Of a DNA stretch of 64,000 nucleotides, positions 13,338 through 56,550 are shown piece by piece. The translations under genes were made by a program, and so were the position numbers. Origin of the DNA: an uncultured Candidatus Saccharibacteria bacterium (GTDB lineage Bacteria; Patescibacteriota; Saccharimonadia; Saccharimonadales; UBA4665); NCBI GenBank assembly GCA_964432725.1, contig CAYSOP010000002.1, forward strand, positions 44,354-108,353, written 5' to 3'. Every line of letters begins with the position of its first letter. Positions within the stretch are counted from its first letter, which is position 1. The notes beneath the pieces are model-generated. The model was not told where the DNA came from and searched no databases. It was given only the letters and a program-made list of their open reading frames with translations.

Positions 13338-15440
13338 CTACTGCGGCATCATCGGGGGTGGGCCGGGAGGAATAAGGCCATTGCCGGGAGCTGGTGCTGA
13401 CGGCTGGATAACCGATGGATTAAAGCTAGACATACCGCCGGGCATTGGCGCCGGAGTAGCTGGTGGAGGCGGCGGTGCTGGGTGCAATGGTTCGCCAAGC
13501 GGCTGCGCGTTAAGAGCGGCAATAGGCTCCACCCCGCCTGGTTGCGAGGCAATTGCTTCGCGCACGGCTTCGCGGGCACTTTCTAGGTCTGGTAATGGTT
13601 CCTCGGGTTCAGGTGCGGGAGGTGGAGGTGTAACCATTGGCGCTGGCGCGGGTGGCGGGGCCATAGGTCTTGGCTGCGAATAATCGGGTTCAGGCATTGG
13701 ACCCTGCGGAGGCGGAGGGGTGGCAAAACTCGGATTTGCCGGAGGCAATGGCGGCTGCTGCATGTGGGGACTGCCGACTCCCTGCTCTAACTGCGTAAGG
13801 GTGGGGCTGTTAGAGAGGGCTGGTGGCGGTGGAAGTGGTGCAGGAGCCGGTACCGGCGGTAACGATTGCGGCTGAGGTGGTTGACTAGGAATGGGCGGCA
13901 ACTGAGGCGCCGGTGGTGGCGCTGGGGGGAATACTGGAGCCGGTGGCGGTGTTGGGGCTACCGGTGGCTGATAGACAGGTGGTGGAGGAGGCGGAGCCAT
14001 GGGTTGCGGCGGCACAACAGGTTGTGGCGGAGGTGTTGGAGCGGGCGCTGGTGCTGGGGGCGGAAGTGGTGGCGCCATGGGTTGCTGCGGAGCAGCCGGG
14101 GCCGAAGCAATAAACGAACTCGCTGCGGCGGTCGTCGCCGAAGCCGGCGGCAAATATGATGATTGCTGCGTGGGCAGCGTACCCTCTATAGGGTCACCAT
14201 TTGTAGGGGTCGTTTGGCCTAAAAAAGATTGGGGTGCCCCCGATGGTGGTTCTAAACCGTCGCCGCCCATATTACCAGGCCCAAAACTGTCGCTCTGGCC
14301 AGCGCCACCTACTGGCGGTTGCAAGATCATGTGTGCGCTGCCCATATGCTCTGTCGGGTCGGTGGTGCCCTTCTGCTCTTGGGCAGGCGTCAACACGCCT
14401 GGCGTAGACGGCTGCGGTGTTGGGGTGGCTGCCTGCGACGGTTCTTGCTCTTTAATTTCTTCCATATTTCTCAGCGACCCGTGCTCATCAATATGAATCT
14501 GGGGCATAGGCGGAGCTTCTTCCGGCTTTTCTTCTTCGGGTTCTGGTTCTGGTGCCGGCGCTTCGGCCTCGCGCTTTTCGTGAGTAATCTCTAGGGTACC
14601 GTCGTCAGGCTTAGGTGGCTCGTCATGATGTTCTTGGGAATTATCGTGGTTGCCCTCGTTGTGTTCTTCGTGGTGCTCGGGCGCTTTCGGAGGCAGTGGT
14701 GCGGGTTCTTCGAGCTTAGTGGCTACTAACTGCTGATTGGCGCCGGCAGCCATAAGTTCGGCGCTCACGCTCATGGTGTTTGGCGAAGTCTTTTCGTTAC
14801 TAAACCGGTCTGTTTCGGCAACAATACCTGTTAAGAATGCGGTAGCCATTTGGCCGTCCATAAGGTCTTTATCGACAGCGTCAATAAGTTCTACGCCTAG
14901 TTCGGACAGGCTGCTGGCGTCTTGCTTAAGCCAGTTCATGGTGCCTAGTTCCCCGCCCGGCTTCAGGTTAACGGTAGCTACCGTAGCATCGTGCAGAATA
15001 CGGCCATGCGACGTAATAGCTTGGTCAAGATCGGTTTGGACATGCACCCCTAACGCTAACACGACGTCAACGTTAAAATCACCCTGCGAAAAGTCCAAAT
15101 CCTTTTGGTTGATCGAGGTACGATACGGGGTAATAAATATTTTGACAACTTTGTCTTCTACCTTGTAACGCAATTTGTCGGCTTTGGCTTTGTCGAGGGC
15201 AATAATAAAATCGCGTAGGCTGTCGGTATTTTTTTCGAGGGTTTTTTCGGGTTGTAAGAACTCTATGGTACTAGGCACATCGCCGCTAAATACGGCGGTG
15301 GCATGCTTACCCATCTTATTAAGGGCTAAGGTGAGGCCAATACAAGAAGCTAATTGGTCAACCGACGGATTATTGCTTACCGTCACTAATATGTTGTTTG
15401 CCTCTTTGAGCCTGTCGGCTATTGCCTGTTTTTGGTCCAT
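13338..15440 (-). CDS. DHH/NrnA-like (degenerate) domain protein with ~450-aa proline-rich C-terminal tail
   Basis: The N-terminal ~245 aa align by eye to the NrnA/DHH-subfamily-1 layout and sit in the usual position upstream of truB. The DxD motif is replaced ('VSNNPSVD') and no DHH triad was seen. The remainder is PPPAP-type low complexity. Confidence 0.65.
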   Translation of the reverse strand: MDQKQAIADRLKEANNILVTVSNNPSVDQLASCIGLTLALNKMGKHATAVFSGDVPSTIEFLQPEKTLEKNTDSLRDFIIALDKAKADKLRYKVEDKVVKIFITPYRTSINQKDLDFSQGDFNVDVVLALGVHVQTDLDQAITSHGRILHDATVATVNLKPGGELGTMNWLKQDASSLSELGVELIDAVDKDLMDGQMATAFLTGIVAETDRFSNEKTSPNTMSVSAELMAAGANQQLVATKLEEPAPLPPKAPEHHEEHNEGNHDNSQEHHDEPPKPDDGTLEITHEKREAEAPAPEPEPEEEKPEEAPPMPQIHIDEHGSLRNMEEIKEQEPSQAATPTPQPSTPGVLTPAQEQKGTTDPTEHMGSAHMILQPPVGGAGQSDSFGPGNMGGDGLEPPSGAPQSFLGQTTPTNGDPIEGTLPTQQSSYLPPASATTAAASSFIASAPAAPQQPMAPPLPPPAPAPAPTPPPQPVVPPQPMAPPPPPPVYQPPVAPTPPPAPVFPPAPPPAPQLPPIPSQPPQPQSLPPVPAPAPLPPPPALSNSPTLTQLEQGVGSPHMQQPPLPPANPSFATPPPPQGPMPEPDYSQPRPMAPPPAPAPMVTPPPPAPEPEEPLPDLESAREAVREAIASQPGGVEPIAALNAQPLGEPLHPAPPPPPATPAPMPGGMSSFNPSVIQPSAPAPGNGLIPPGPPPMMPQ

Positions 15441-47733: not shown

Positions 47734-48330
47734 TTAGTTCTGATCTCGCAATTCCCTGTTAGTTCCACTAGAGATATTTGCGAATGGGGTAATTGCTTCA
47801 ACTGTCTTGAGGTGACGTCGACGTATTTGTTCCTTCAGGCTATCAATATTTTTGATGGTTTTTTTCATACTAAAAAACGAAAAAACCATCATCCCTAGAA
47901 TAAAGACACTACAAACGACTAGAATCTTGCTAACCATAGCTCCGTAAAGTATGCCCATAAGGCCTATACCAGTCATTGTCGGTAATGACTTCTTTGATAT
48001 GTATAACTGCAGCTCGGCCTTCTCAATATATGCGGGCATGGCTTTCGCGAGCCTTCGTTCTCTTGGAAGGGTGCCCTTTTTAAAATAATCCAGCAACTTC
48101 CAGTCTTCGTTTGTACGTGCCATTCCTGGCATCTCATTAATTTTTTTCTTCATTATTATACCCATTGGTACGCCAAAACCTATGGTGGCAAATATGAAAA
48201 CCGGCCACAAAAACGGTCCATTGCCTATATTCGCCATGAGGGCACCAAATGGTAAGCCGTTTAATGCGACAGCTACGGGTATAGAGTTAAGAATGTAGTG
48301 TATCTTTTGTCTACGAGTGGCATTAGTCAT
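47734..48330 (-). CDS. polytopic membrane protein (candidate orphan immunity protein)
   Basis: 198 aa with 4 predicted TM helices. AT-rich codon usage unlike the backbone genes. Confidence 0.55.
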   Translation of the reverse strand: MTNATRRQKIHYILNSIPVAVALNGLPFGALMANIGNGPFLWPVFIFATIGFGVPMGIIMKKKINEMPGMARTNEDWKLLDYFKKGTLPRERRLAKAMPAYIEKAELQLYISKKSLPTMTGIGLMGILYGAMVSKILVVCSVFILGMMVFSFFSMKKTIKNIDSLKEQIRRRHLKTVEAITPFANISSGTNRELRDQN

Positions 48331-48458: not shown

Positions 48459-48835
48459 ATGAGCTATTCTAGCCAATCCTTTACTACCAAAGGCGAGAGC
48501 CGAGGCGGTACGCTTCGTGGTCGAGCGTAAGCTACCCGTCTTGGTAGCTGCTCGTAAGAGCGGTATCCACCGCACCACACTCTGGCGCTGGTGTAAGCAG
48601 TGGCAAAAGCTCAACCAGAACGTCCAACTCACCAACGACAACCGGCCAGGACGAGGCACGGCTACTGCCCGGTGTGCCAGTGGCGCCTAGCCGCCTGCTC
48701 TTGGCGTATCCCCACCAGAAGCAGCCGGCCTCGTCGTTGTAAACATGCGGTAAGCGAAGCGGTCGTAGACCGCATCCACTACTACCGCAAGCGGTATGGC
48801 CGCTGCGCGACCATTGTGCATGCCTACTCTAGCCT
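48459..48835 (+). pseudogene. frameshifted and truncated transposase N-terminus (HTH plus IS481/IS3-type linker)
   Basis: AGGAG SD precedes the ATG at 48459. In a +1 frame it reads 'ARAEAVRFVVERKLPVLVAARKSGIHRTTLWRWCKQW', and in the third frame 'PTRSSRPRRCKHAVSEAVVDRIHYYRKRYGRCATIVHAY'. No catalytic domain follows. Confidence 0.6.
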
Positions 48836-49038
48836 GCTTTTTTACCAAAAAGGCGATGAGCCAGAATGGCTTATTAATGAGGCTATTCTTGCACAGTTCC
48901 GATCACGAGAAGAGTATATGAAGTTTGTGAGTGATTATGAAGCGCACAAACTTATACTTGAGGAGCTTAGGCAGGAGTTGGCGGACGTTTAATTGGTAGA
49001 CGACTTATCTATTTTGGGAATGTCCTCGGCGTTCCCTA

Positions 49039-49407
49039 CTAAGGCTTAATGATCAAATCATTCTTTTTAAATAGATAGTAGATAAGTGAAAATGTTATTA
49101 AAAATCCGATTGCACTAAGACACACTATAAATAGAAGTTGCCCCGTGACAGACTCTCCATACTTATCAAGGATGTTTTTTATATCAAAGATTGTCTTCAC
49201 AGCCACCAGCAAAGCCAGAATTTGCGCGATTACGAACCTTTTAGTGCTAAGGAGCGTCTCAAGTTCTTTATATCTCGGACTCTTTTTGTACTTTGCTATT
49301 AGTGCCTTGCGCTTCAATCTAAGGTAAATCGTCCGTGAGATAAATAGCACTAGAGTAAAAAGAATTGTAATCTCAAATAAGAAAGTGAAATTTTCATTAG
49401 GCTGCAT
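49039..49407 (-). CDS. three-TM membrane protein, candidate cognate immunity protein of the RHS toxin
   Basis: 122 aa, AT-rich, beginning 60 nt downstream of the toxin stop on the same strand. Three hydrophobic helices. Confidence 0.5.
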   Translation of the reverse strand: MQPNENFTFLFEITILFTLVLFISRTIYLRLKRKALIAKYKKSPRYKELETLLSTKRFVIAQILALLVAVKTIFDIKNILDKYGESVTGQLLFIVCLSAIGFLITFSLIYYLFKKNDLIIKP

Positions 49408-49467
49408 TTTACGGACTCCTTAATTTATAGTACACATTTTATAAAAATAACGTTATTTTATCAGATA

Positions 49468-52400
49468 TCATAGGTGAAACGGATTAAGTACAGACCATGG
49501 TGCACCGTCAAGATCATCTGCCCTATCTGAGCCTGTCCAGCCGTAGTAAAATCCTAGGCCAAAGCCAACAACCCCTCCTGCTGCCCAGCCAACCCCACCT
49601 GCCGCTATACACCCAGCACCTGCGAAAACCATACCTATACCGCAGCCCGCTGTCCCGAAGACTACTTGACCTGCAGTAGAATAGTTAGACCCGGTATTAA
49701 TCCCATTATATAACCTGAACCAATTGGATGGTCCTGTTGTCGGTGCTGGATTATAGCTATTGGACCCTTTCGGCAATGCGCTCAAATCACCAAGGATAGG
49801 ACTAACGTGCGTCGGTTTTAAAGCCAGTTGCAAAATTATTGCGATCGGTAATGAGGGCGATCTAGGCACTGTTACGGCGCTTCTAACCGCGCCAGGCCCC
49901 TGAATAGTGATCGTATTCGCCACCGGCCTAAAAACAGGCGGATTAGGCTGCATCTGATAGCTATTTATCACTACAATACTGGTCTTGTAACCACTGCTGT
50001 TTATAACGCCAAGCATCCCGCTATAGTCACTCCCATTCACCGGATCAAGTACATACGTATACGCATTCAGTACACCCCCTTCTACTGGGTCTACTTGGGT
50101 GAATCTACCAATACTTGGGAGGTATACTCTTGCACCCATGGATATTGGAGTTAGGGCAAAGGATGTCTCACTCAGTTTGCCAAGTTTACCGGCCCAGGCG
50201 TAGGAACCGCTGGCTGCGGTGTTGCTGGGGTAGGTGGAACCCGTTAGGATGTTACCGAAAGGGTCGTAGGTGAAGGTGTTTGCGGGGCCGTTACCGGTGG
50301 AGGTGTTTGTGCCTGCAGCGTCGGTAGTTATAAGGGTGTGGCCGTTTATACTAGCTAGGCTGTATTGTTTTTGGGCATTGCCGGTTTGGGTTGGCTTAAT
50401 AGTAAGGGATACACCGCCAGGCAACGATATGTTCTTTTCGACTATTGCCCAACTGCTATCGCGGACGTAGTCGGCACTATCGCCACTGCCCGTGTAGTGG
50501 TAAAACCAGCTGCCTGCCCCGGCCCAACTGCCGTTGGTTATAGTGTTCTTGTAGCGGCCAATAACGCGGCCCTGCACATCGCGGTCGTAGTACATGCCAA
50601 CGCCTGTGTTACTGGAGTTGTACTGTTCGTAGCCAGAGTTGCGGTCTGAACTGTCATAGAATAAATGCAGCGGTGTGGTGCCGGTACCAATCTGGGTCAT
50701 GTTGCCGTGGGCGTCGTAGGTTGGGTTGTCGTACAGCGCATTACTGCTATCTATTAACTTGTCGGCATAGTCGTAGCAAAAGTACGTAGTGACGCCGTTT
50801 ATTGTTTGGCTGGTGCGATTGCTGTTTTTACCGGAGTTGGGATTTTTGTTGTTACCGGTGCCGCAGGTAGTTGTATCTTGCGCGCCAAAGCCATATGCAA
50901 AGCTGTTACCGCCAATTGTTGTGCTGGTTAGGCGGTCGATACCGTCGTAACTGTACGTAGACCACAGGTCGCCGCCGGCGCTGGCGACGATGTCGTTCTG
51001 GATACGTCCGGACTGCGTACGGTTTACGGTATTGCTTATTGTTGTGGTGCCGTTGCCCATACGGTATGTCTTAGAGCTAAGCCGGCCCAGGTTATCGCGG
51101 CCATATGTAATCCGCTGCTGGCCAGCACTTGGGTAATCTATGTAGTCGGCACGACTATATGAGTCGTAGTGAACGGTTGCGTAGGTAACCGTGTCTAGTT
51201 TTTGGTCTACTAGCCTGCCGTAGGTGTCGTAGGTAAACGCCTCCGTGCCCATTGGGCTGACGCGTTGAGTTACACGTCCGTAGGTGTCGTAGGTTGTGGT
51301 CGTTTCGTCGTCGTATACATCGCGGTACTTTGTTGTACGGCCCAGTAAATCTTTCCAAACTACAATCCAGCCACTGCCATCCCATGTGGTTGTTACGAGT
51401 GGACTGCCGCCGACAGCGTAGTCGTTTTGAATAGTACGTGCTGCTGCGCCGTTGAACGCAGGAATAGTAGTCTGAGTCACGCGGCCACGAGTATCGTACG
51501 CGGTACATGTCCAGCTATCTGCATTGTAACGGGCAGCCACTACCCTGCCAGCGTCGTCGTAAATGACTTCGCTGGTTCGGCCGGTTTGCGAGCTTGCGCC
51601 GTCTGGATCTGCCTCGGTTTTAGTCTTTACGAATCCGCCCTGTTTGTAAGCTTCGGTCGTACCTGTCGTACAGGGATTGTCTTTGGTGTCGGTAGCGCCA
51701 TAGTAGGCGTAATTTGTCGTACCGCCACCGGGCAAACTTTTGGTGAGTTGGCGAATATAGCTGCCCGTAGCGCCCGGCGTTTCGTAGGTTGCAGATGTGG
51801 TGAGGTTTAGACCTGTAGGATCAGCACTCGTGCTTTGGGCTAAGCCTAATTCTGGGCTGGTGCCATAGTTTGTAGTTACTGTATTGTCGCCTAGCGTCCC
51901 GTCGTACGACTTCGCGGTAGTATTCAAGCCATAGCCAGGCTTTAGCTTAACGCCAAGGGCGTCATCGCCGGTTCCTGGATTAGCGTTAACCGCAGACATA
52001 TACAGCTGAAGTTCTGCGTTTGTATTACTTGCCGACGCGTCGTAATACTCCAGGTAAAACCTGTATGCCTTACCCGCTTCTAGCTGTTTCGAGCCAGCAT
52101 GGCTCCGCCACACGCCATTGTTCCAATCGCCTGCAATAAGCTGGTCGTCTATGTACAGCCGAGCGCCGTCGTCGTGGTAAAGGTGGAAGGTGTAGTTGCC
52201 GGTAGTAGGTACACGTAGCTTGCCGGATGCCCGTAGACCCCAGCCGTCAAAGCCGCTACCGATAGTAACGGGCGGCGTTGTATTCCATGCCTTATGCATC
52301 GTGCCAGGCGACGTGGTATCTATGCCGGTAGTTCGCAGCTTTGGTGCGCCAAACAGCACTTTGTTTGTTGCTTTGTAGTCGAAGTAAGTAACTTCTGGGC

Positions 52401-55400
52401 CTACTATATTTTCGTCGTAGGCACTATCTGCGCGTGGCACTTGTGCGACATATGTCGATGTTGGCTTGCGGTCGGGGCCAAACCAACTTGCGGGTGCTAG
52501 CCCGTAACCTTCTATTGGCCTGTCTTCGTCGTCATAAATTGTGGTCGTTTTAAAACTTGCCGGGTCGGTTACGGAAAGTACCAAATCTTTGTCTGGATTC
52601 CACTCTGTTGCAGTAGTCAGGTTAGTGATGTCGGTATGCTCGACTACGCGTAATAAATTATCGTACTTAATGCGCTGCACAAAACCATTTGGTTCGGTTA
52701 AGCCAACTACGTGTTGTTTTGTAATACCTGCGTAGCCTGGAACATTGTTGCCGCCTGAGTCCACGTACCCCTTAACGCCTGGCAGATATTCTATAGTGTG
52801 TTCCACGCGCGTAGCGGTTGCTGTTGCCCCTGGCTGTTTAACGCTTGTTGCGCGCCCTAAATCATCGTAGGTAAGTTCAGTTTTTACCGTAGCGTCGTTT
52901 GTGCGAACGCCTGCGGCTACTGCATCGTTGGCAAGCGCATCTCGCAACCAATTAAGCCTATAGCCGATGGTTACGCCGCCGCTCTGCACTGCTTCGTAAC
53001 CGTAATCGAACGTCTCGCTCCCCGGCGCAACCATACGCGCCAGCTGCTTATTGGTGTAGTAAAAGTACGTTGCACGTCCATCATTTGTTTTTACCGCACA
53101 GAGTAAGTCTGCGGCAAATATTGCAGTGTCAAAACCGCTTGGTGGCGTGGCGCACTCGGTGCTGCCATAGTAAAACACCTTTGCCCATCGTGTATTATCC
53201 ACTCCGTCAGTAATTTGGCTAATGCGTGCTGGAGTTCCTTCGTAAGTGTAGTTTAGCGCAGCTGGCCTACGGTCATCTTTGGGAGTGGTCAAACTTTTTA
53301 GAGTGCCATCTACGTCAAATATATATGTTCGCCCGTCTTTATCTAGCAATGTATGAGTACCGTCGGTATTGCGAGTAAGCTGGCCGTCTTCATTAGCTGG
53401 TGGTTTATATACGCTACCTGCTGTATAGACATACTCATGGGTCGCACCACTCGCGTCGCTTAACACAGCAGTAGAAGGAGTGACTGTTAAGTGGTCGTAT
53501 GCCGCAGCACCACTAGGGTCGACGCCTAGGTTCCAGCCGTCCGGCATTGATTGCACTCCTGGCGTTAACCACGACCTAGGAACAATCTGCTGTGGCACCG
53601 CACCCTGCACTTTCAGCACAAAGCTAGCCGCTCCGGTGTTGTCATAATACTCGATGGTAATCTTGGTTGGCGTATCTGCCGTCAGAGAGTAAGCCGTACC
53701 GTAGCTTTCGGTCGCACCCCTATCCACCCACTCGTTATATACAACCGTGTTTGAGTTACCGAGCATGATCTTTACGCCGTCATCGCTTTTTACGCCGAAT
53801 GTATAGTTACCGGTGGCCGGCACCTTAACGAATCCGGTCCAACGGACTAAGAAACCGTCAGGACCATTTGGAGTAGGCGCAGCCGTACCCCAATCAAAGT
53901 TAAGGTAAGGATCAGTGCGCTTCATCATAAGCGTATTGCCAGATGAGAACGTATTAGTGCCATCGAACTTACCATAGTAGCTACCCACCAGGCCATAAGG
54001 GTCCTCTACTGGTCGCACGCCCGTCTGCAGCCATTCGGCCGGTATTACCTGCTCTGTTACCGGGCCTTTAACATACAGGTGTACATAGGCTGGTGAAGTG
54101 TGTTCTCTAAATTCAGTTCTAAATTTAATCACCTGCCCTTCTTGCAGTGTTATGGACGACCCGTAGCACACGCCCGTGTAGCATCCACCACTTGTGTATA
54201 GCTGTGTGTCGTTAAGATAAATAGCCATGTAGTCGTCGTGATTACCGCCAAAGTAATACGTGCCAGTAGTTGGCGCAACAAAGTAGCCTTGCCACCTAGC
54301 ATAAAACCAATCGCTGTTTGCTATGCCCGGCGAACCCATTCCCCAGTCAAAATCTACCTTTTGATCTACACGCGTAAGGTCGGGCGTAGCGGTTGGCGCG
54401 CCCCCTGAATAATTAGTAGCTACATTCCAGTACTCGCCCACCAGGCCGTTACGCGACCGCAGCGGCGAATTGTAATCAAGATTTACACCTAAACTGCCGC
54501 CACTTGCCGCCGACGTATGACTTGCAGCACCAGTTGTCACATTGCCTGATGCCAGATCAACACTTACCGGCCCGAGCGTGTCGTAAGTTTGTGTTTTATC
54601 TTTTCCGGTACGCATATCAATCCGGAATGGAACTGAGGCACCCCACCCACTGTAAGTCGCTGTAATAGGGTCGTAGCTGCGCGCCTGAACATAGTACGTC
54701 GCCCCGTCTTGTAACATATGGTCAGGTATAGTCCACTGGGTTGAGTCCAGTAAGCCGGAAGGCACTACTACGCCTGTAGCACTTGACCCACTTGTAACTA
54801 AAATCTCGTACTTAAGCGGCGTACTACCATTGGGGTTATCTACCGTATTAACACTAAACGAGGGTTGTGGATCCACATACACCTGGCCTGACGTAGGCGT
54901 CTTCATGCTAGGCGCAACCGGTGGCCCACCATACGTGAATGTTACATAGCTGGCAGGCGTTTGCTCTGTACCCGGATCAAAATTCTTAAACGAATGGTCG
55001 GTGCCATCGTTGCCGCCAATCATAAGCCAGGCACCGTAGTCGCCAAGTGCTAGCCGTGAACTATAAATATCTGTAACGTCAATATCGCCAGACGACGTTA
55101 CACTGCCCGAGTCATTAAATGCACCGCCGTCCAAACAGTTATAGCTATTCAAGCACGAAGCATGCCCCGCATAAAACGTATGCGTTCCCCAATCGCCAGT
55201 CCAGAAACTCTCATTACTGCGCTGTACTAAATGCAATTTGGCCTGGATTAAGCTAGTACCGCCCACACGAAACTGATCATATGGCGCAAAAAACGCAGAG
55301 CGCCAAGAGCGAAGTGTGGGGCCTGGATCGTACAACGTACCTGCGTAAGGATTACATACGTTGGAATAACAAATATATCCGTCGTTTTTAAATGACATGT

Positions 55401-56550
55401 AATTACCGCCAGCTCGCGTACCAAACCGACTATTAAAGGTCGTCGGGTCGATTACGGCCGGGAATGCTTTAGCTGGCAAACCCTGTAAATAGTCACGAGC
55501 TACGCTTACTGCTACCCTATTCGATGTATGCGACTGGGTAAGTATGCCCGATTGAGTCACCTGGCCAAATTCATTCAAAATTAAGTTTGGTGGGGCGATA
55601 GCAAATTCATTATTAAATACACCCTTCAGTACCAAAGAAGGTGCCAAATACTCACCTAGTGATTGCTTTTCTAAAGTCGCGCCAACAACATCAAATGCTA
55701 TCTGATTAGTTGCTGTTTTATTTTTAAGAATAATGTTCTCTTTAATTGATCCCGTGCCTACCAAGTATTCAACATTAACACCAGGCCATAAGTCGTAATA
55801 ATGCACAATCTGCCGCCCGTCCTCTGTGCGCGTAATGACTGGCGCAACTTCGGAAGCCCCGACAGGCACAAAGCCAACTTGGTCATTTCCCTGCTTTATA
55901 CGCACCATTCCCCGGCTAGAGTCGCTAGGCGAAAACCTTGCCTGCCAATCATTGTCTTTAACCATAAAGTTTGTCGTCGACGATACCCAAGATTGCGCCG
56001 CTCCAAATGCCCTGCCAAATACCGTGCCGGCGTCTCCGGCATTTTTATCTTCTACAAGTAATGTATCGATATCTGTCCACACACCACCCTTTTGGAAAAA
56101 CTTAGGTGCAAAGTACTGCTTTGTAGTGAGCGTACCGTCGGCATTAACCGAAGTTGTAGTGGTGGCAGTCCGCTTATTAGTCAATTCATGGGCTTGTACC
56201 TTTGGCTTTTGCTTAAGCTCGTTCAGGGTCTCACTAGACACTGACCTTTTTCCTATCTGATCTACTGTCGTTGGATTGGTGGGTTGAGCATCGGCTGCAG
56301 CTTGTTCGTTAGACGTTACTATGGGCGTAGCGCCAGGGTAGTTCTGCTGCATAGGTGTTGTCGTATCGGGTGGCGTACCTTTGACGTGCGGATTTATCTT
56401 AACTGCCTGGCTAGCGGCATACGCCGATGCCGGTGGCACCAACATACTGGCTACAAATACAGTCAAAAAAGACAGCGCCAGGATGCGCCGTAGCAGTATG
56501 TTTATTTGGATTTTTATATTTAATGTAAGCCCCGACGGTCTGCGCAGCAT
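49468..56550 (-). CDS. secreted PA14-domain / RHS (YD-repeat) polymorphic toxin, WapA-like, 2360 aa
   Basis: GGGGAG SD. N-terminal TM/signal '[22 protein letters not shown]'. Three PA14 modules (aa ~701-832, 851-985, 1385-1520; for example 'GLVGEYWN...DFDWG...[19 protein letters not shown]'). Many YD repeats ('YTYDxxGR', 'YDxxGR'). RHS core end '[31 protein letters not shown]', followed by a 182-aa C-terminal module. Confidence 0.85.

What the first reader, a model, noticed from the sequence alone, without database searches (positions are those of the whole stretch)
49039..50016. Glycine-zipper C-terminal toxin module and adjacent three-TM immunity candidate
After the RHS demarcation '[25 protein letters not shown]', the last 182 aa (49471-50016) bear no resemblance to nuclease or deaminase C-terminal domains I know.

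They end in a ~45-residue Gly/Ala-rich hydrophobic stretch, '[46 protein letters not shown]'. This contains repeated GxxxG/A motifs, enough for two TM helices of the glycine-zipper type used by membrane-depolarising effectors and bacteriocins.

The next gene (49039-49407) is a small, AT-rich, three-TM protein, which is what one expects for immunity to a membrane-acting toxin. If correct, this is an ionophoric or pore-forming RHS payload in an ultra-small bacterium.
Basis: inference. Interest (0 to 1): 0.7.

Follow-up and report, generated by a model that had tools for sequence, protein, structure and literature searches.

The report
Saccharibacterial RHS glycine-zipper toxin and immunity pair
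A giant secreted RHS protein of a soil Saccharimonadales (ultra-small, episymbiotic) bacterium ends in a small glycine-rich two-helix module that is always followed, in 18 independent cassettes, by a matching three-helix membrane protein, which marks them as an unannotated toxin-immunity pair most likely acting on the target cell membrane.

Summary
A 2360-aa Sec-signal/PA14/RHS protein (49468-56550, minus strand) carries 182 residues after the RHS core. A 122-aa, AT-rich, three-hydrophobic-segment gene (49039-49407) follows 60 nt downstream.

Neither part matches Pfam, NCBIfam, PHROGs, PADLOC or PDB sequences. Only the last 88 residues form a conserved domain. The first ~94 are a variable linker.

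Exhaustive and HMM searches found 18 distinct cassettes with this domain, all on RHS ends or RHS remnants. The named genomes are Saccharimonadales or Saccharibacteria MAGs. Every cassette is followed at once by a homologue of the 122-aa protein.

- Toxin and partner identities co-vary (r = 0.86, Mantel p ~3e-4).
- A second glycine-rich end type pairs only with a second partner family.
- Partner genes also occur as tandem copies and as orphans without a toxin.
- Against the closest genome, identity is ~90% up to DYSG and ~25-30% after it.

AlphaFold with 7 sequences gives a helix-turn-helix hairpin (pLDDT 61) with a GxxxG ladder and a conserved Cys pair.

The toxin-immunity reading is strongly supported. 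Pore formation or depolarisation is inferred by analogy with Tse5/Tsi5, TspA, EsxX and TelE and is untested. I rate it a new member of a known kind, of moderate interest.

The parts
49468..56550 (-). RHS polymorphic toxin gene, 2360 aa: signal peptide, PA14 x3, YD/RHS repeats, Rhs-associated core, C-terminal toxin region
   Evidence: ORF list. Pfam PA14 at 1.7e-46 with 3 stretches, and RHS_repeat. NCBIfam TIGR03696 and YD_repeat.
56416..56550 (-). Putative Sec signal peptide (aa 1-45: basic LLRRILA, hydrophobic [16 protein letters not shown], then SAYA/AS)
   Evidence: By inspection of the translation. No predictor was available, so this is inference.
53623..53997 (-). Best-scoring PA14 domain (aa 852-976), one of three
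50014..50268 (-). Rhs-associated core domain (aa 2095-2179), ending in [11 protein letters not shown]. This is the demarcation and putative autoproteolysis site.
   Evidence: The identity cliff against L012 falls exactly here.
49735..50016 (-). Variable linker or pre-toxin region (CT residues 1-94). MLGVINSS... and [23 protein letters not shown] are shared with RHS proteins that carry other ends.
   Evidence: Alignments. The single-sequence AF2 model is disordered here.
49471..49734 (-). Conserved 88-aa glycine-zipper toxin domain, type A ([11 protein letters not shown] ... [28 protein letters not shown])
   Evidence: Exhaustive phmmer hits align to query residues 95-180. Alignments. HMM survey.
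49627..49725 (-). Predicted helix 1 (domain residues 4-36) with G30xxxG34xxxA38 and invariant Cys31
   Evidence: AF2 with 7-sequence alignment, pLDDT 61. Conservation.
49537..49614 (-). Predicted helix 2 (domain residues 41-66) with Cys42 and the G49-G53-G57-G61-G65 ladder
49416..49421 (-). Shine-Dalgarno AAGGAG, 8 nt upstream of the ATG of the 122-aa gene
   Evidence: Sequence
49039..49407 (-). Cognate immunity candidate, type A: 122 aa, three predicted TM helices, N-out/C-in, GC 0.35
   Evidence: Homologues directly follow every type-A toxin domain.
48517..48992 (+). Remnant of a transposase-like gene (HTH_23 / HTH_Tnp-like N-terminus, two overlapping frames) abutting the cassette. Marks the downstream edge of the locus.
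   Evidence: Weak Pfam HTH hits. ORFs.

Best explanation
This is a polymorphic RHS toxin-immunity cassette of a Saccharimonadales bacterium.

**Proposed mechanism.**
1. The 2360-aa protein is exported by Sec. This is inferred from the N-terminal signal-like sequence.
2. It binds target surfaces through its PA14 domains. The domains are shown; their role is inferred.
3. Its RHS shell encloses the C-terminal region, which is released at the D-Y-S-G|M site. This is inferred from the motif and from the identity cliff.
4. The payload is a ~94-aa variable linker followed by an 88-aa glycine-zipper helix-turn-helix hairpin, a family with no database annotation.
5. The hairpin most likely inserts into the target cytoplasmic membrane from outside.
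6. It then self-associates through its small-xxx-small faces and dissipates membrane potential as a pore or ion channel. This is inferred by analogy.

**Immunity.** The 122-aa three-TM protein encoded 60 nt downstream is the cognate immunity protein. It most likely binds the hairpin within the producer's membrane and blocks its assembly. The partnership is shown by comparative genomics; the mechanism is inferred.

**Probabilities.** Toxin-immunity pair, about 0.9. Membrane-permeabilising mode of action, about 0.65. The overall confidence given for this explanation (0.65) is that of the full statement including the mode of action.
For: **RHS architecture and boundary**
- PA14 x3, YD repeats and Rhs_assc_core ending at residue 2179.
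- Against the closest genome (L012), aa identity is ~0.8-0.97 across the last 500 core residues. It drops to 0.17-0.36 immediately after DYSG.

**Family**
- An exhaustive phmmer search of 1.84 billion representatives gave 6 hits, all RHS ends or remnants of them.
- An HMM survey of the fetched loci gave 18 distinct cassettes.

**Partnership**
- In all 18 cassettes a homologue of the 122-aa protein starts within about 60 nt of the toxin stop.
- In 75 RHS loci from GTDB species-representative genomes, 6 primary ends are type A and all 6 have the partner. None of the ~69 other ends has it.
- From that table, Fisher p is about 5e-9 by my arithmetic.

**Co-divergence**
- r = 0.86, Mantel p ~3e-4.
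- One contig (L007) carries two subtypes, each with its matching partner subtype.
- Type-B ends pair only with type-B partners.

**Other immunity hallmarks**
- Three tandem partner paralogues in L003.
- Orphan partner genes without a toxin in L029, L023 and L004.
- GC of 0.35 against 0.51 for the window.

**Membrane-acting payload**
- No enzymatic domain found.
- The AF2 model is a helical hairpin, helices 4-36 and 41-66.
- Conserved GxxxG ladder and Cys pair.
- One relative weakly matches Pfam Gly-zipper_Omp at E = 0.0023.

**Precedents**
- Tse5-CT/Tsi5 (PMC9637101, PMC10684867).
- TspA/TsaI, EsxX/ExiCD and TelE (PMC12744356).
- CDI ionophores with hydrophobic CdiI (PMC11630599).
- Sec-dependent WapA-type RHS toxins (PMC12704120).
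Against: - No activity data exist.
- The AF2 model has only moderate confidence (pLDDT 61, pTM 0.43, 7 sequences). Foldseek found nothing significant.
- Hydrophobicity of the glycine-rich helices is marginal. Kyte-Doolittle maximum is 1.69. An approximate biological-scale dG is +2.5 kcal/mol, using scale values recalled from the literature.
- The window sequence itself matches no Pfam glycine-zipper model.
- The canonical DPxGL autoproteolysis motif is replaced by DYSGM, so cleavage is not assured.
- The signal peptide was judged by eye only.
- Co-divergence can partly reflect shared genome phylogeny.
Confidence: 0.65

Rival explanations
1. Receptor-dependent, bacteriocin-like killing. The glycine-rich hairpin does not form a pore by itself. 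It binds and jams or opens a specific membrane protein of the target, as class II bacteriocins do with Man-PTS, UppP or RseP. The three-TM protein protects by binding the toxin-receptor complex.
For: - The domain is small and Gly-rich with a conserved Cys pair, features reminiscent of class II bacteriocins (the resemblance rests on general knowledge).
- Its marginal hydrophobicity argues against spontaneous insertion.
- Its conserved polar tail, [AS]D.FD..P.....P[FWY], could be a recognition element.
- CDI ionophores also depend on target membrane proteins for entry (PMC11630599).
Against: - No Pfam bacteriocin family matches.
- No receptor candidate is known.
- The GxxxG ladder is the typical self-association motif of depolarising toxins (PMC12744356).
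Confidence: 0.15
2. The glycine zipper is a membrane-translocation device rather than the killing part, as in Tde1 of Agrobacterium. The toxic activity would lie in the ~94-aa linker or in an unrecognised activity of the domain.
For: - A glycine zipper is needed for translocation of the T6SS DNase Tde1 (PMC10240207, title and abstract only).
- Part of the linker ([23 protein letters not shown]) is conserved between RHS proteins with different ends.
Against: - The linker is variable, low in complexity and absent from truncated orphan copies. The 88-aa domain is what is conserved and what tracks the partner gene.
- The same linker occurs with a different end and a different partner. Specificity therefore lies in the glycine-rich end.
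- A polytopic membrane partner fits a membrane-acting toxin (PMC12744356).
Confidence: 0.05
3. Not a toxin. The C-terminal hairpin is a membrane anchor or sorting element that holds the RHS adhesin on the producer, and the three-TM protein is its membrane partner or assembly factor.
For: - Hydrophobic C-terminal segment next to a small membrane protein.
- The PA14 domains suggest an adhesin role.
Against: - The segment lies after the RHS core demarcation, where payloads sit, and is swapped between near-identical cores.
- It occurs in orphan RHS-end arrays together with other end types, many of them basic and not hydrophobic.
- Partner genes occur as orphans and tandem copies.
- The tail after the helices is acidic, unlike sorting signals, which end in basic residues (general knowledge).
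Confidence: 0.04

Closest known systems
Tse5 (RhsP1) C-terminal pore-forming toxin with Tsi5 immunity, Pseudomonas aeruginosa (PMC9637101, PMC10684867)
   Same: An RHS shell carries a non-enzymatic, hydrophobic, membrane-inserting C-terminal payload. Immunity is a small integral membrane protein encoded next to it. Encapsulation is thought to shield the producer.
   Different: - Tse5 is PAAR-like, VgrG-loaded and T6SS-delivered in a Gram-negative. Here there is a Sec-type signal with PA14 domains, in Saccharimonadales.
- No sequence similarity was detectable: a profile search of PDB sequences found no RHS toxin end.
- Tsi5 has two predicted TM regions; this partner has three.
- This payload domain is only ~88 aa and carries a conserved Cys pair.
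Glycine-zipper LXG toxins of Firmicutes: TspA/TsaI, EsxX/ExiCD, TelE (PMC12744356)
   Same: C-terminal glycine-zipper domain, membrane depolarisation as the expected activity, polytopic membrane immunity, orphan immunity genes in non-producers, and a monoderm-type target envelope.
   Different: - Those toxins are T7SS substrates with LXG domains.
- EsxX also needs soluble cytoplasmic immunity (ExiAB). Nothing comparable is seen here.
- No detectable homology.
WapA-type Sec-dependent RHS toxins of Gram-positive bacteria (B. subtilis, S. suis; PMC12704120)
   Same: N-terminal signal peptide, surface-binding region, RHS repeats, variable C-terminal toxin after the core, and an adjacent immunity gene.
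   Different: - The WapA toxins characterised in B. subtilis are tRNases (PMC12704120).
- Wall binding is by LysM or sortase modules there, and by PA14 here.
- No SecF-like or SrtB genes lie next to this locus.
CDI ionophore toxins (CdiA-CT EC93 family) with hydrophobic CdiI (PMC11630599)
   Same: A polymorphic, non-enzymatic, membrane-depolarising C-terminal toxin with a highly polymorphic membrane immunity protein that protects only against its cognate toxin.
   Different: Two-partner-secretion CdiA scaffold, a predicted five-helix bundle plus an entry domain, and Enterobacteria. No homology.
PA14/RHS toxin noted in the rhizosphere Saccharibacterium 'T. rhizospherense' (PMC6031116)
   Same: A ~2500-aa secreted RHS/YD protein with a PA14 domain and a neighbouring immunity gene in a soil Saccharibacterium. 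It has the same overall architecture and the same habitat type as several related loci here.
   Different: That paper gives one sentence and does not analyse the C-terminal end or the immunity protein. Whether its end is of the glycine-zipper type was not checked here.

Membership tests
RHS/YD polymorphic toxin | YD/RHS repeats and Rhs-associated core domain | tested here: met
   Pfam RHS_repeat 23.4 bits (cutoff 22). NCBIfam YD_repeat_2x 31.1 bits (cutoff 15.8). TIGR03696 49 bits (cutoff 32.5), aa 2095-2179.
RHS/YD polymorphic toxin | Sharp loss of similarity right after the core motif when compared with a close relative (swappable C-terminal end) | tested here: met
   Window against L012: 0.8-0.97 identity before DYSG and 0.17-0.36 after it.
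RHS/YD polymorphic toxin | Canonical DPxGL aspartyl autoproteolysis motif at the core end | tested here: inconclusive
   The motif here is DYSGM. Relatives have D[YLF][ST]G[ML]. The Asp and Gly are kept and the Pro is lost. Cleavage cannot be tested with these tools.
RHS/YD polymorphic toxin | Cognate immunity gene directly downstream, and orphan end/immunity arrays in relatives | tested here: met
   18 of 18 cassettes have the partner gene. Orphan arrays are present in L004, L007 and L012. No orphan array is present in the window itself.
Glycine-zipper membrane-depolarising toxins (functional class: TspA, EsxX, TelE) | (G/A/S)xxxGxxxG or GxxxGxxx(G/S/T) motif in a predicted helix (definition quoted in PMC12744356) | tested here: met
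   G49xxxG53xxxG57xxxG61xxxG65 lies in predicted helix 2. G53, G57 and G61 are invariant in 9 sequences.
Glycine-zipper membrane-depolarising toxins (functional class: TspA, EsxX, TelE) | Membrane insertion and depolarisation of target cells | not testable with these tools
   Only indirect evidence is available: a hairpin model at pLDDT 61 and a Kyte-Doolittle maximum of 1.69.
Glycine-zipper membrane-depolarising toxins (functional class: TspA, EsxX, TelE) | Polytopic membrane immunity protein | tested here: met
   Three hydrophobic segments, with loop charges that fit the positive-inside rule. This is a prediction only.
Pfam glycine-zipper families (PF13488, PF05433, PF13441) | Score at or above the family gathering threshold | tested here: not met
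   The window sequence has no hit at E <= 10. One of 7 relatives hits PF13488 at E = 0.0023, PF05433 at 0.074 and PF13441 at 0.11.
Tse5-CT family | Detectable sequence or fold similarity to Tse5-CT | tested here: inconclusive
   The profile search of PDB sequences and the Foldseek PDB search gave no RHS toxin hit. I could not confirm that the Tse5 C-terminal sequence is in the searched copy. The toxin is unresolved in the cryo-EM map (PMC11630599).
WapA-type Sec-dependent RHS | N-terminal Sec signal peptide | tested here: inconclusive
   An n-h-c pattern with AYA|AS is seen by eye in aa 1-45. No signal-peptide predictor was available.
WapA-type Sec-dependent RHS | Cell-wall binding module (LysM or similar), with associated SecF-like and SrtB genes | tested here: not met
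   Pfam finds PA14 and GLEYA only. The neighbours are housekeeping genes such as a sugar isomerase-like gene and GroEL.
Class II bacteriocins | Leader peptide and a match to a bacteriocin family | tested here: not met
   There is no Pfam or NCBIfam bacteriocin hit. The domain is fused to an RHS protein. The short stand-alone calls (P0004, P0008, P0011) are truncated orphan ends.

The most novel reading that the evidence does not exclude
The 88-aa domain defines a minimal two-helix pore-former, possibly stapled by a disulfide between its two conserved cysteines. So far it has been found only on RHS ends or RHS remnants; where the contig's organism is named, it is Saccharibacteria. It would be delivered without any injection machine by a Sec-exported PA14-RHS adhesin.

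Its marginal hydrophobicity would let it pass the producer's Sec channel and insert only from outside. That would explain why a membrane immunity protein is needed in cis.

It could be a main weapon in competition between episymbionts, or in killing of the actinobacterial host. RHS cores of the same type are shared between Saccharibacteria and Actinobacteria at 50-63% identity.
Probability: 0.25. Interest if true: 0.65.

Novelty: new member of a known kind. Interest (0 to 1): 0.45.

Why it matters
Saccharibacteria are obligate episymbionts with tiny genomes. How they compete with each other and harm their actinobacterial hosts is poorly understood.

This work defines two unannotated protein families, a glycine-zipper RHS payload and its three-TM partner. 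It also shows a parallel type-B pair. Membrane-targeting payloads recur in saccharibacterial RHS loci. They have immunity arrays and orphan immunity genes, which point to ongoing warfare between related cells.

The domain is small enough (88 aa) for peptide synthesis and bilayer electrophysiology. The 18 natural toxin-partner pairs give a ready-made specificity panel.

Conceptually it extends a known theme, Tse5/Tsi5 and the LXG glycine-zipper toxins, to a new phylum and to a Sec-dependent route. It does not open a new category.

Tried and rejected
**Searches that found nothing useful**
- The word-index protein search with the 182 aa found nothing. The exhaustive phmmer was needed.
- With the domain profile, the word-index search added only P0011.
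- Single-sequence AlphaFold was useless, at pLDDT 34.
- Genome and metagenome scans with the toxin-domain alignment found nothing. A scan with the RHS core-end alignment worked.
- PDB sequence profile search: only chance-level hits.
- Foldseek PDB: no hit below E = 3. A 67-residue chain of the yeast TIM23 complex (9j9b_D) had TM 0.52/0.65 but E = 7.
- PHROGs, PADLOC and Rfam: nothing.
- Pfam on the partner family: scattered TM noise only.
- No convincing intrinsic terminator or promoter was found around the cassette beyond shuffle expectation.

**Readings rejected**
- Stand-alone bacteriocin genes. P0004's open frame continues upstream into GPSNWSRL, and all three short calls sit in RHS-end arrays.
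- Holin, for the 122-aa protein. There is no PHROG support and no phage context.
- C-terminal sorting signal. The tail is acidic, the position is after the RHS core, and the end is swappable.

**Not pursued**
- The viral collections, as irrelevant.
- The second metagenome scan.
Full report
**1. The observation**

The minus strand holds a 2360-aa ORF at 49468-56550. Pfam finds three PA14 stretches (1.7e-46) and RHS repeats. NCBIfam finds YD repeats and the Rhs-associated core TIGR03696 (49 bits, cutoff 32.5) at residues 2095-2179.

They contain a 47-residue stretch that is 34% Gly and 17% Ala. Numbered within the last 88 residues, it carries G49-G53-G57-G61-G65 at i+4 spacing.

Sixty nucleotides downstream, an AAGGAG sits 8 nt before an ATG that opens a 122-aa ORF at 49039-49407. 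That gene has:
- GC of 0.35, against 0.507 for the window;
- three Kyte-Doolittle segments above 1.6;
- loop charges of -1, +9, -1 and +2, which fit an N-out/C-in three-TM protein.

None of the searched libraries matches either protein. These were Pfam, NCBIfam, PHROGs and PADLOC for both, and the PDB sequence profile search for the conserved toxin domain.

**2. Organism**

The RHS protein clusters at 90% identity with HSX31933.1, annotated Candidatus Saccharimonadales bacterium. The most similar RHS core ends in GTDB genomes are mainly from Saccharimonadales or Saccharibacteria MAGs. 'Ultra-small bacterium' is therefore right. The locus is flanked by housekeeping genes such as GroEL, a sugar isomerase-like gene and ArgRS.

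**3. What the C-terminal region is made of**

An exhaustive phmmer search of 1.84 billion representative proteins gave only six hits. The best ones align to query residues 95-180.

Alignments show that the last ~88 residues are a conserved domain. Written over the 18-sequence alignment, its approximate consensus is: Y.G...G..Y...G...G..GC..G ... G.GC ... G..G.G.GF..G....AD.FD..P.....P[FWY].

Residues 1-94 are a variable, low-complexity linker. Part of it (MLGVINSS..., [23 protein letters not shown]) also occurs in RHS proteins whose terminal domain is different. An example is P0005.

AlphaFold2 gave two results:
- With the sequence alone it was uninformative, at pLDDT 34.
- With a 7-sequence alignment of the 88-aa domain it gave helix 4-36, turn 37-40 and helix 41-66, followed by a disordered acidic tail. 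Mean pLDDT was 61 and pTM 0.43.

The two best conserved cysteines, C31 and C42, flank the turn. Foldseek against the PDB gave nothing significant. One relative weakly matches Pfam Gly-zipper_Omp (E = 0.0023), but the window sequence does not.

**4. The cassette test**

The only non-identical homologue of the 122-aa protein in the word-index database (P0002, 67% identity) lies on a root metagenome contig. It sits directly after a homologous RHS end that is 72% identical in the 88-aa domain.

I looked up the contigs for all six phmmer hits and for P0011. In each, the next gene is a 111-123-aa three-TM protein. BLASTP links all of those that follow a type-A domain to the 122-aa protein. Direct links have E from 1e-27 to 6e-15. 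The most distant ones connect through intermediates.

I then fetched 78 RHS loci from GTDB species-representative genomes using an alignment of the RHS core end. I searched all fetched loci with HMMs of the toxin domain and of the partner. The results were:
- There are 18 distinct type-A cassettes: window, L002, L003, L004 x2, L005, L007 x2, L008, L009, L012, L015, L018, L021, L022, L033, L069 and L079.
- Each has a partner-family ORF starting within about 60 nt of the toxin stop.
- Of the 75 GTDB loci with a complete primary end, 6 are type A and all 6 have the partner.
- None of the ~69 other ends has the partner. Fisher p is about 5e-9 by my arithmetic.
- Many of those other ends are basic and are followed by soluble proteins.

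**5. Co-variation and modularity**

Across nine cassettes, pairwise identity of toxin domains and of partners correlates at r = 0.86, with Mantel p ~3e-4.

Shared genome history could contribute to this. Two observations argue for cassette-level linkage instead:
- Contig L007 carries two cassettes of different subtypes, each with the matching partner subtype.
- A second glycine-rich end (type B: P0005/L006, L007 2083-2748, L014) is followed only by a second three-TM family (type B). This holds even where the linker is shared with the window protein.

Against the nearest genome (L012), the last 500 residues of the RHS core are 80-97% identical. Identity falls to 17-36% right after DYSG, and L012 has its own divergent type-A end and partner. 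This is the classic signature of a swappable polymorphic-toxin end.

**6. Immunity hallmarks**

- L003 has three tandem partner paralogues after one orphan RHS end.
- L033 has two partner-family ORFs after its type-A end.
- L029, L023 and possibly L032 carry partner genes with no type-A toxin. L004 carries orphan type-B partners.
- Orphan RHS-end arrays occur in L004, L007 and L012.
- The short 'stand-alone' proteins P0004, P0008 and P0011 are truncated orphan ends, not separate bacteriocin genes. P0004's open frame continues upstream into GPSNWSRL.

**7. Mechanism**

What is shown:
- the RHS architecture;
- the position of the end after the core;
- the swap at DYSG;
- the strict toxin-partner linkage.

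What is inferred:
- Sec export, from an n-h-c pattern with AYA|AS in residues 1-45 seen by eye;
- surface binding through PA14;
- encapsulation and release of the end;
- insertion of the hairpin into the target membrane;
- oligomerisation through small-xxx-small faces, with dissipation of membrane potential;
- neutralisation inside the producer's membrane by the three-TM protein.

The inference rests on several points. No enzymatic domain was found. The model is a hairpin with a conserved glycine ladder. The partner is polytopic.

It also rests on these precedents:
- Tse5-CT is a pore-forming RHS payload, with the membrane protein Tsi5 as immunity (PMC9637101; summarised in PMC12744356 and PMC11630599).
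- TspA/TsaI, EsxX/ExiCD and TelE are glycine-zipper depolarising toxins. According to PMC12744356, immunity is 'in almost all cases' provided by polytopic membrane proteins.
- WapA-type RHS toxins are exported by Sec in Gram-positive bacteria (PMC12704120).

One further idea is speculative. The glycine-rich helices are only marginally hydrophobic. The Kyte-Doolittle maximum is 1.69. An approximate biological-scale dG is +2.5 kcal/mol, against -3.5 for the partner's TM3 (scale values recalled from the literature). That might let the segment pass the producer's Sec channel and insert only later from outside. It would also explain why a membrane immunity protein is needed.

**8. Rivals**

- Receptor-dependent, bacteriocin-like action (0.15) is compatible with the marginal hydrophobicity and the conserved polar tail.
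- A translocation-only role for the zipper, as in Tde1 (0.05), is unlikely. Specificity tracks the glycine-rich end rather than the linker.
- An anchor or sorting role (0.04) is contradicted by the position after the core, the swapping, the orphan arrays and the acidic tail.

**9. Comparison and novelty**

In function this resembles Tse5/Tsi5 and the LXG glycine-zipper toxins. In delivery it resembles WapA. It is not a detectable sequence member of any of these families or of the Pfam glycine-zipper families (membership table).

A PA14/RHS toxin with a neighbouring immunity gene was mentioned in one sentence for a rhizosphere Saccharibacterium (PMC6031116). I found no description of this end or of its partner family.

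I rate it a new member of a known kind: two unannotated families in a phylum where such weapons are little studied. Interest is moderate (0.45). The cassette evidence is strong, the concept is established, and the activity is untested.

Noticed in passing
L020, L043, L048, L049, L044, L065, L067, L086: The RHS core end of this Saccharimonadales protein is 37-63% identical to RHS core ends in Actinobacteria, the usual hosts of Saccharibacteria. Examples are Allorhizocola (63%), Kribbella, Streptomyces, Jatrophihabitans, Actinotalea and Microbacterium. This could mean gene exchange between episymbiont and host. None of the actinobacterial loci fetched carried the type-A end or its partner.
   Followed up: partly
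window 48517-48992 (+): There are two overlapping frames with a weak transposase-type HTH (HTH_23 at E = 2e-4; HTH_Tnp_1 at 0.05). They sit directly downstream of the immunity gene and look like a degraded IS element at the edge of the cassette. A complete HTH_38/rve transposase also ends the array in L009.
   Followed up: partly
window 47734-48330 (-): A 198-aa membrane protein (GC 0.41) with no family match. Homologues lie near RHS arrays in L033 (6818-7660, E = 2e-9) and L004 (15387-15956, E = 8e-4), but on the opposite strand relative to the RHS gene. It could be a conserved neighbour or an unrelated membrane protein.
   Followed up: partly
L029 6466-6909 and 7346-7798; L023 9120-9515 and 9485-9739; L004 9583-9927: Partner-family (immunity) genes occur without any matching toxin end, next to RHS genes that carry other ends. 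These look like orphan immunity genes that would protect against neighbours' toxins.
   Followed up: partly
L002 1021-1120: The partner gene on the root metagenome contig is interrupted at a run of T (DQLFF*). It continues in another frame to ...IYYLFKKSDLIIKP. This is either a sequencing error or a real frameshift.
   Followed up: no
L014 (titled Limnocylindria) and L034 (titled Nevskiaceae): Two MAGs with non-Patescibacteria names carry RHS core ends 55-68% identical to the saccharibacterial one. L014 has a type-B end and partner. Mis-binned saccharibacterial contigs are a likely explanation.
   Followed up: no
L012 6326-8845 and 8808-9101: The closest genome has a second, orphan RHS fragment after its first immunity gene. 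Its end is another hydrophobic one with a GGC...GC pair, followed by a small membrane protein. Several distinct membrane-type ends therefore occur per genome.
   Followed up: partly
L005 2-1116: An RHS end rich in Arg and Lys is followed by a DUF3885 protein, probably another toxin-immunity pair. It sits immediately upstream of the truncated type-A orphan P0004.
   Followed up: no
window 13338-15440 (-): A 700-aa protein whose C-terminal half is an extreme Pro/Ala-rich low-complexity tract. It explains the local GC peak (0.578) and GC-skew peak (0.25) in the composition profile.
   Followed up: no
window 1-64000: No tRNA genes (ARAGORN) and no Rfam family at gathering threshold were found in 64 kb.
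   Followed up: yes
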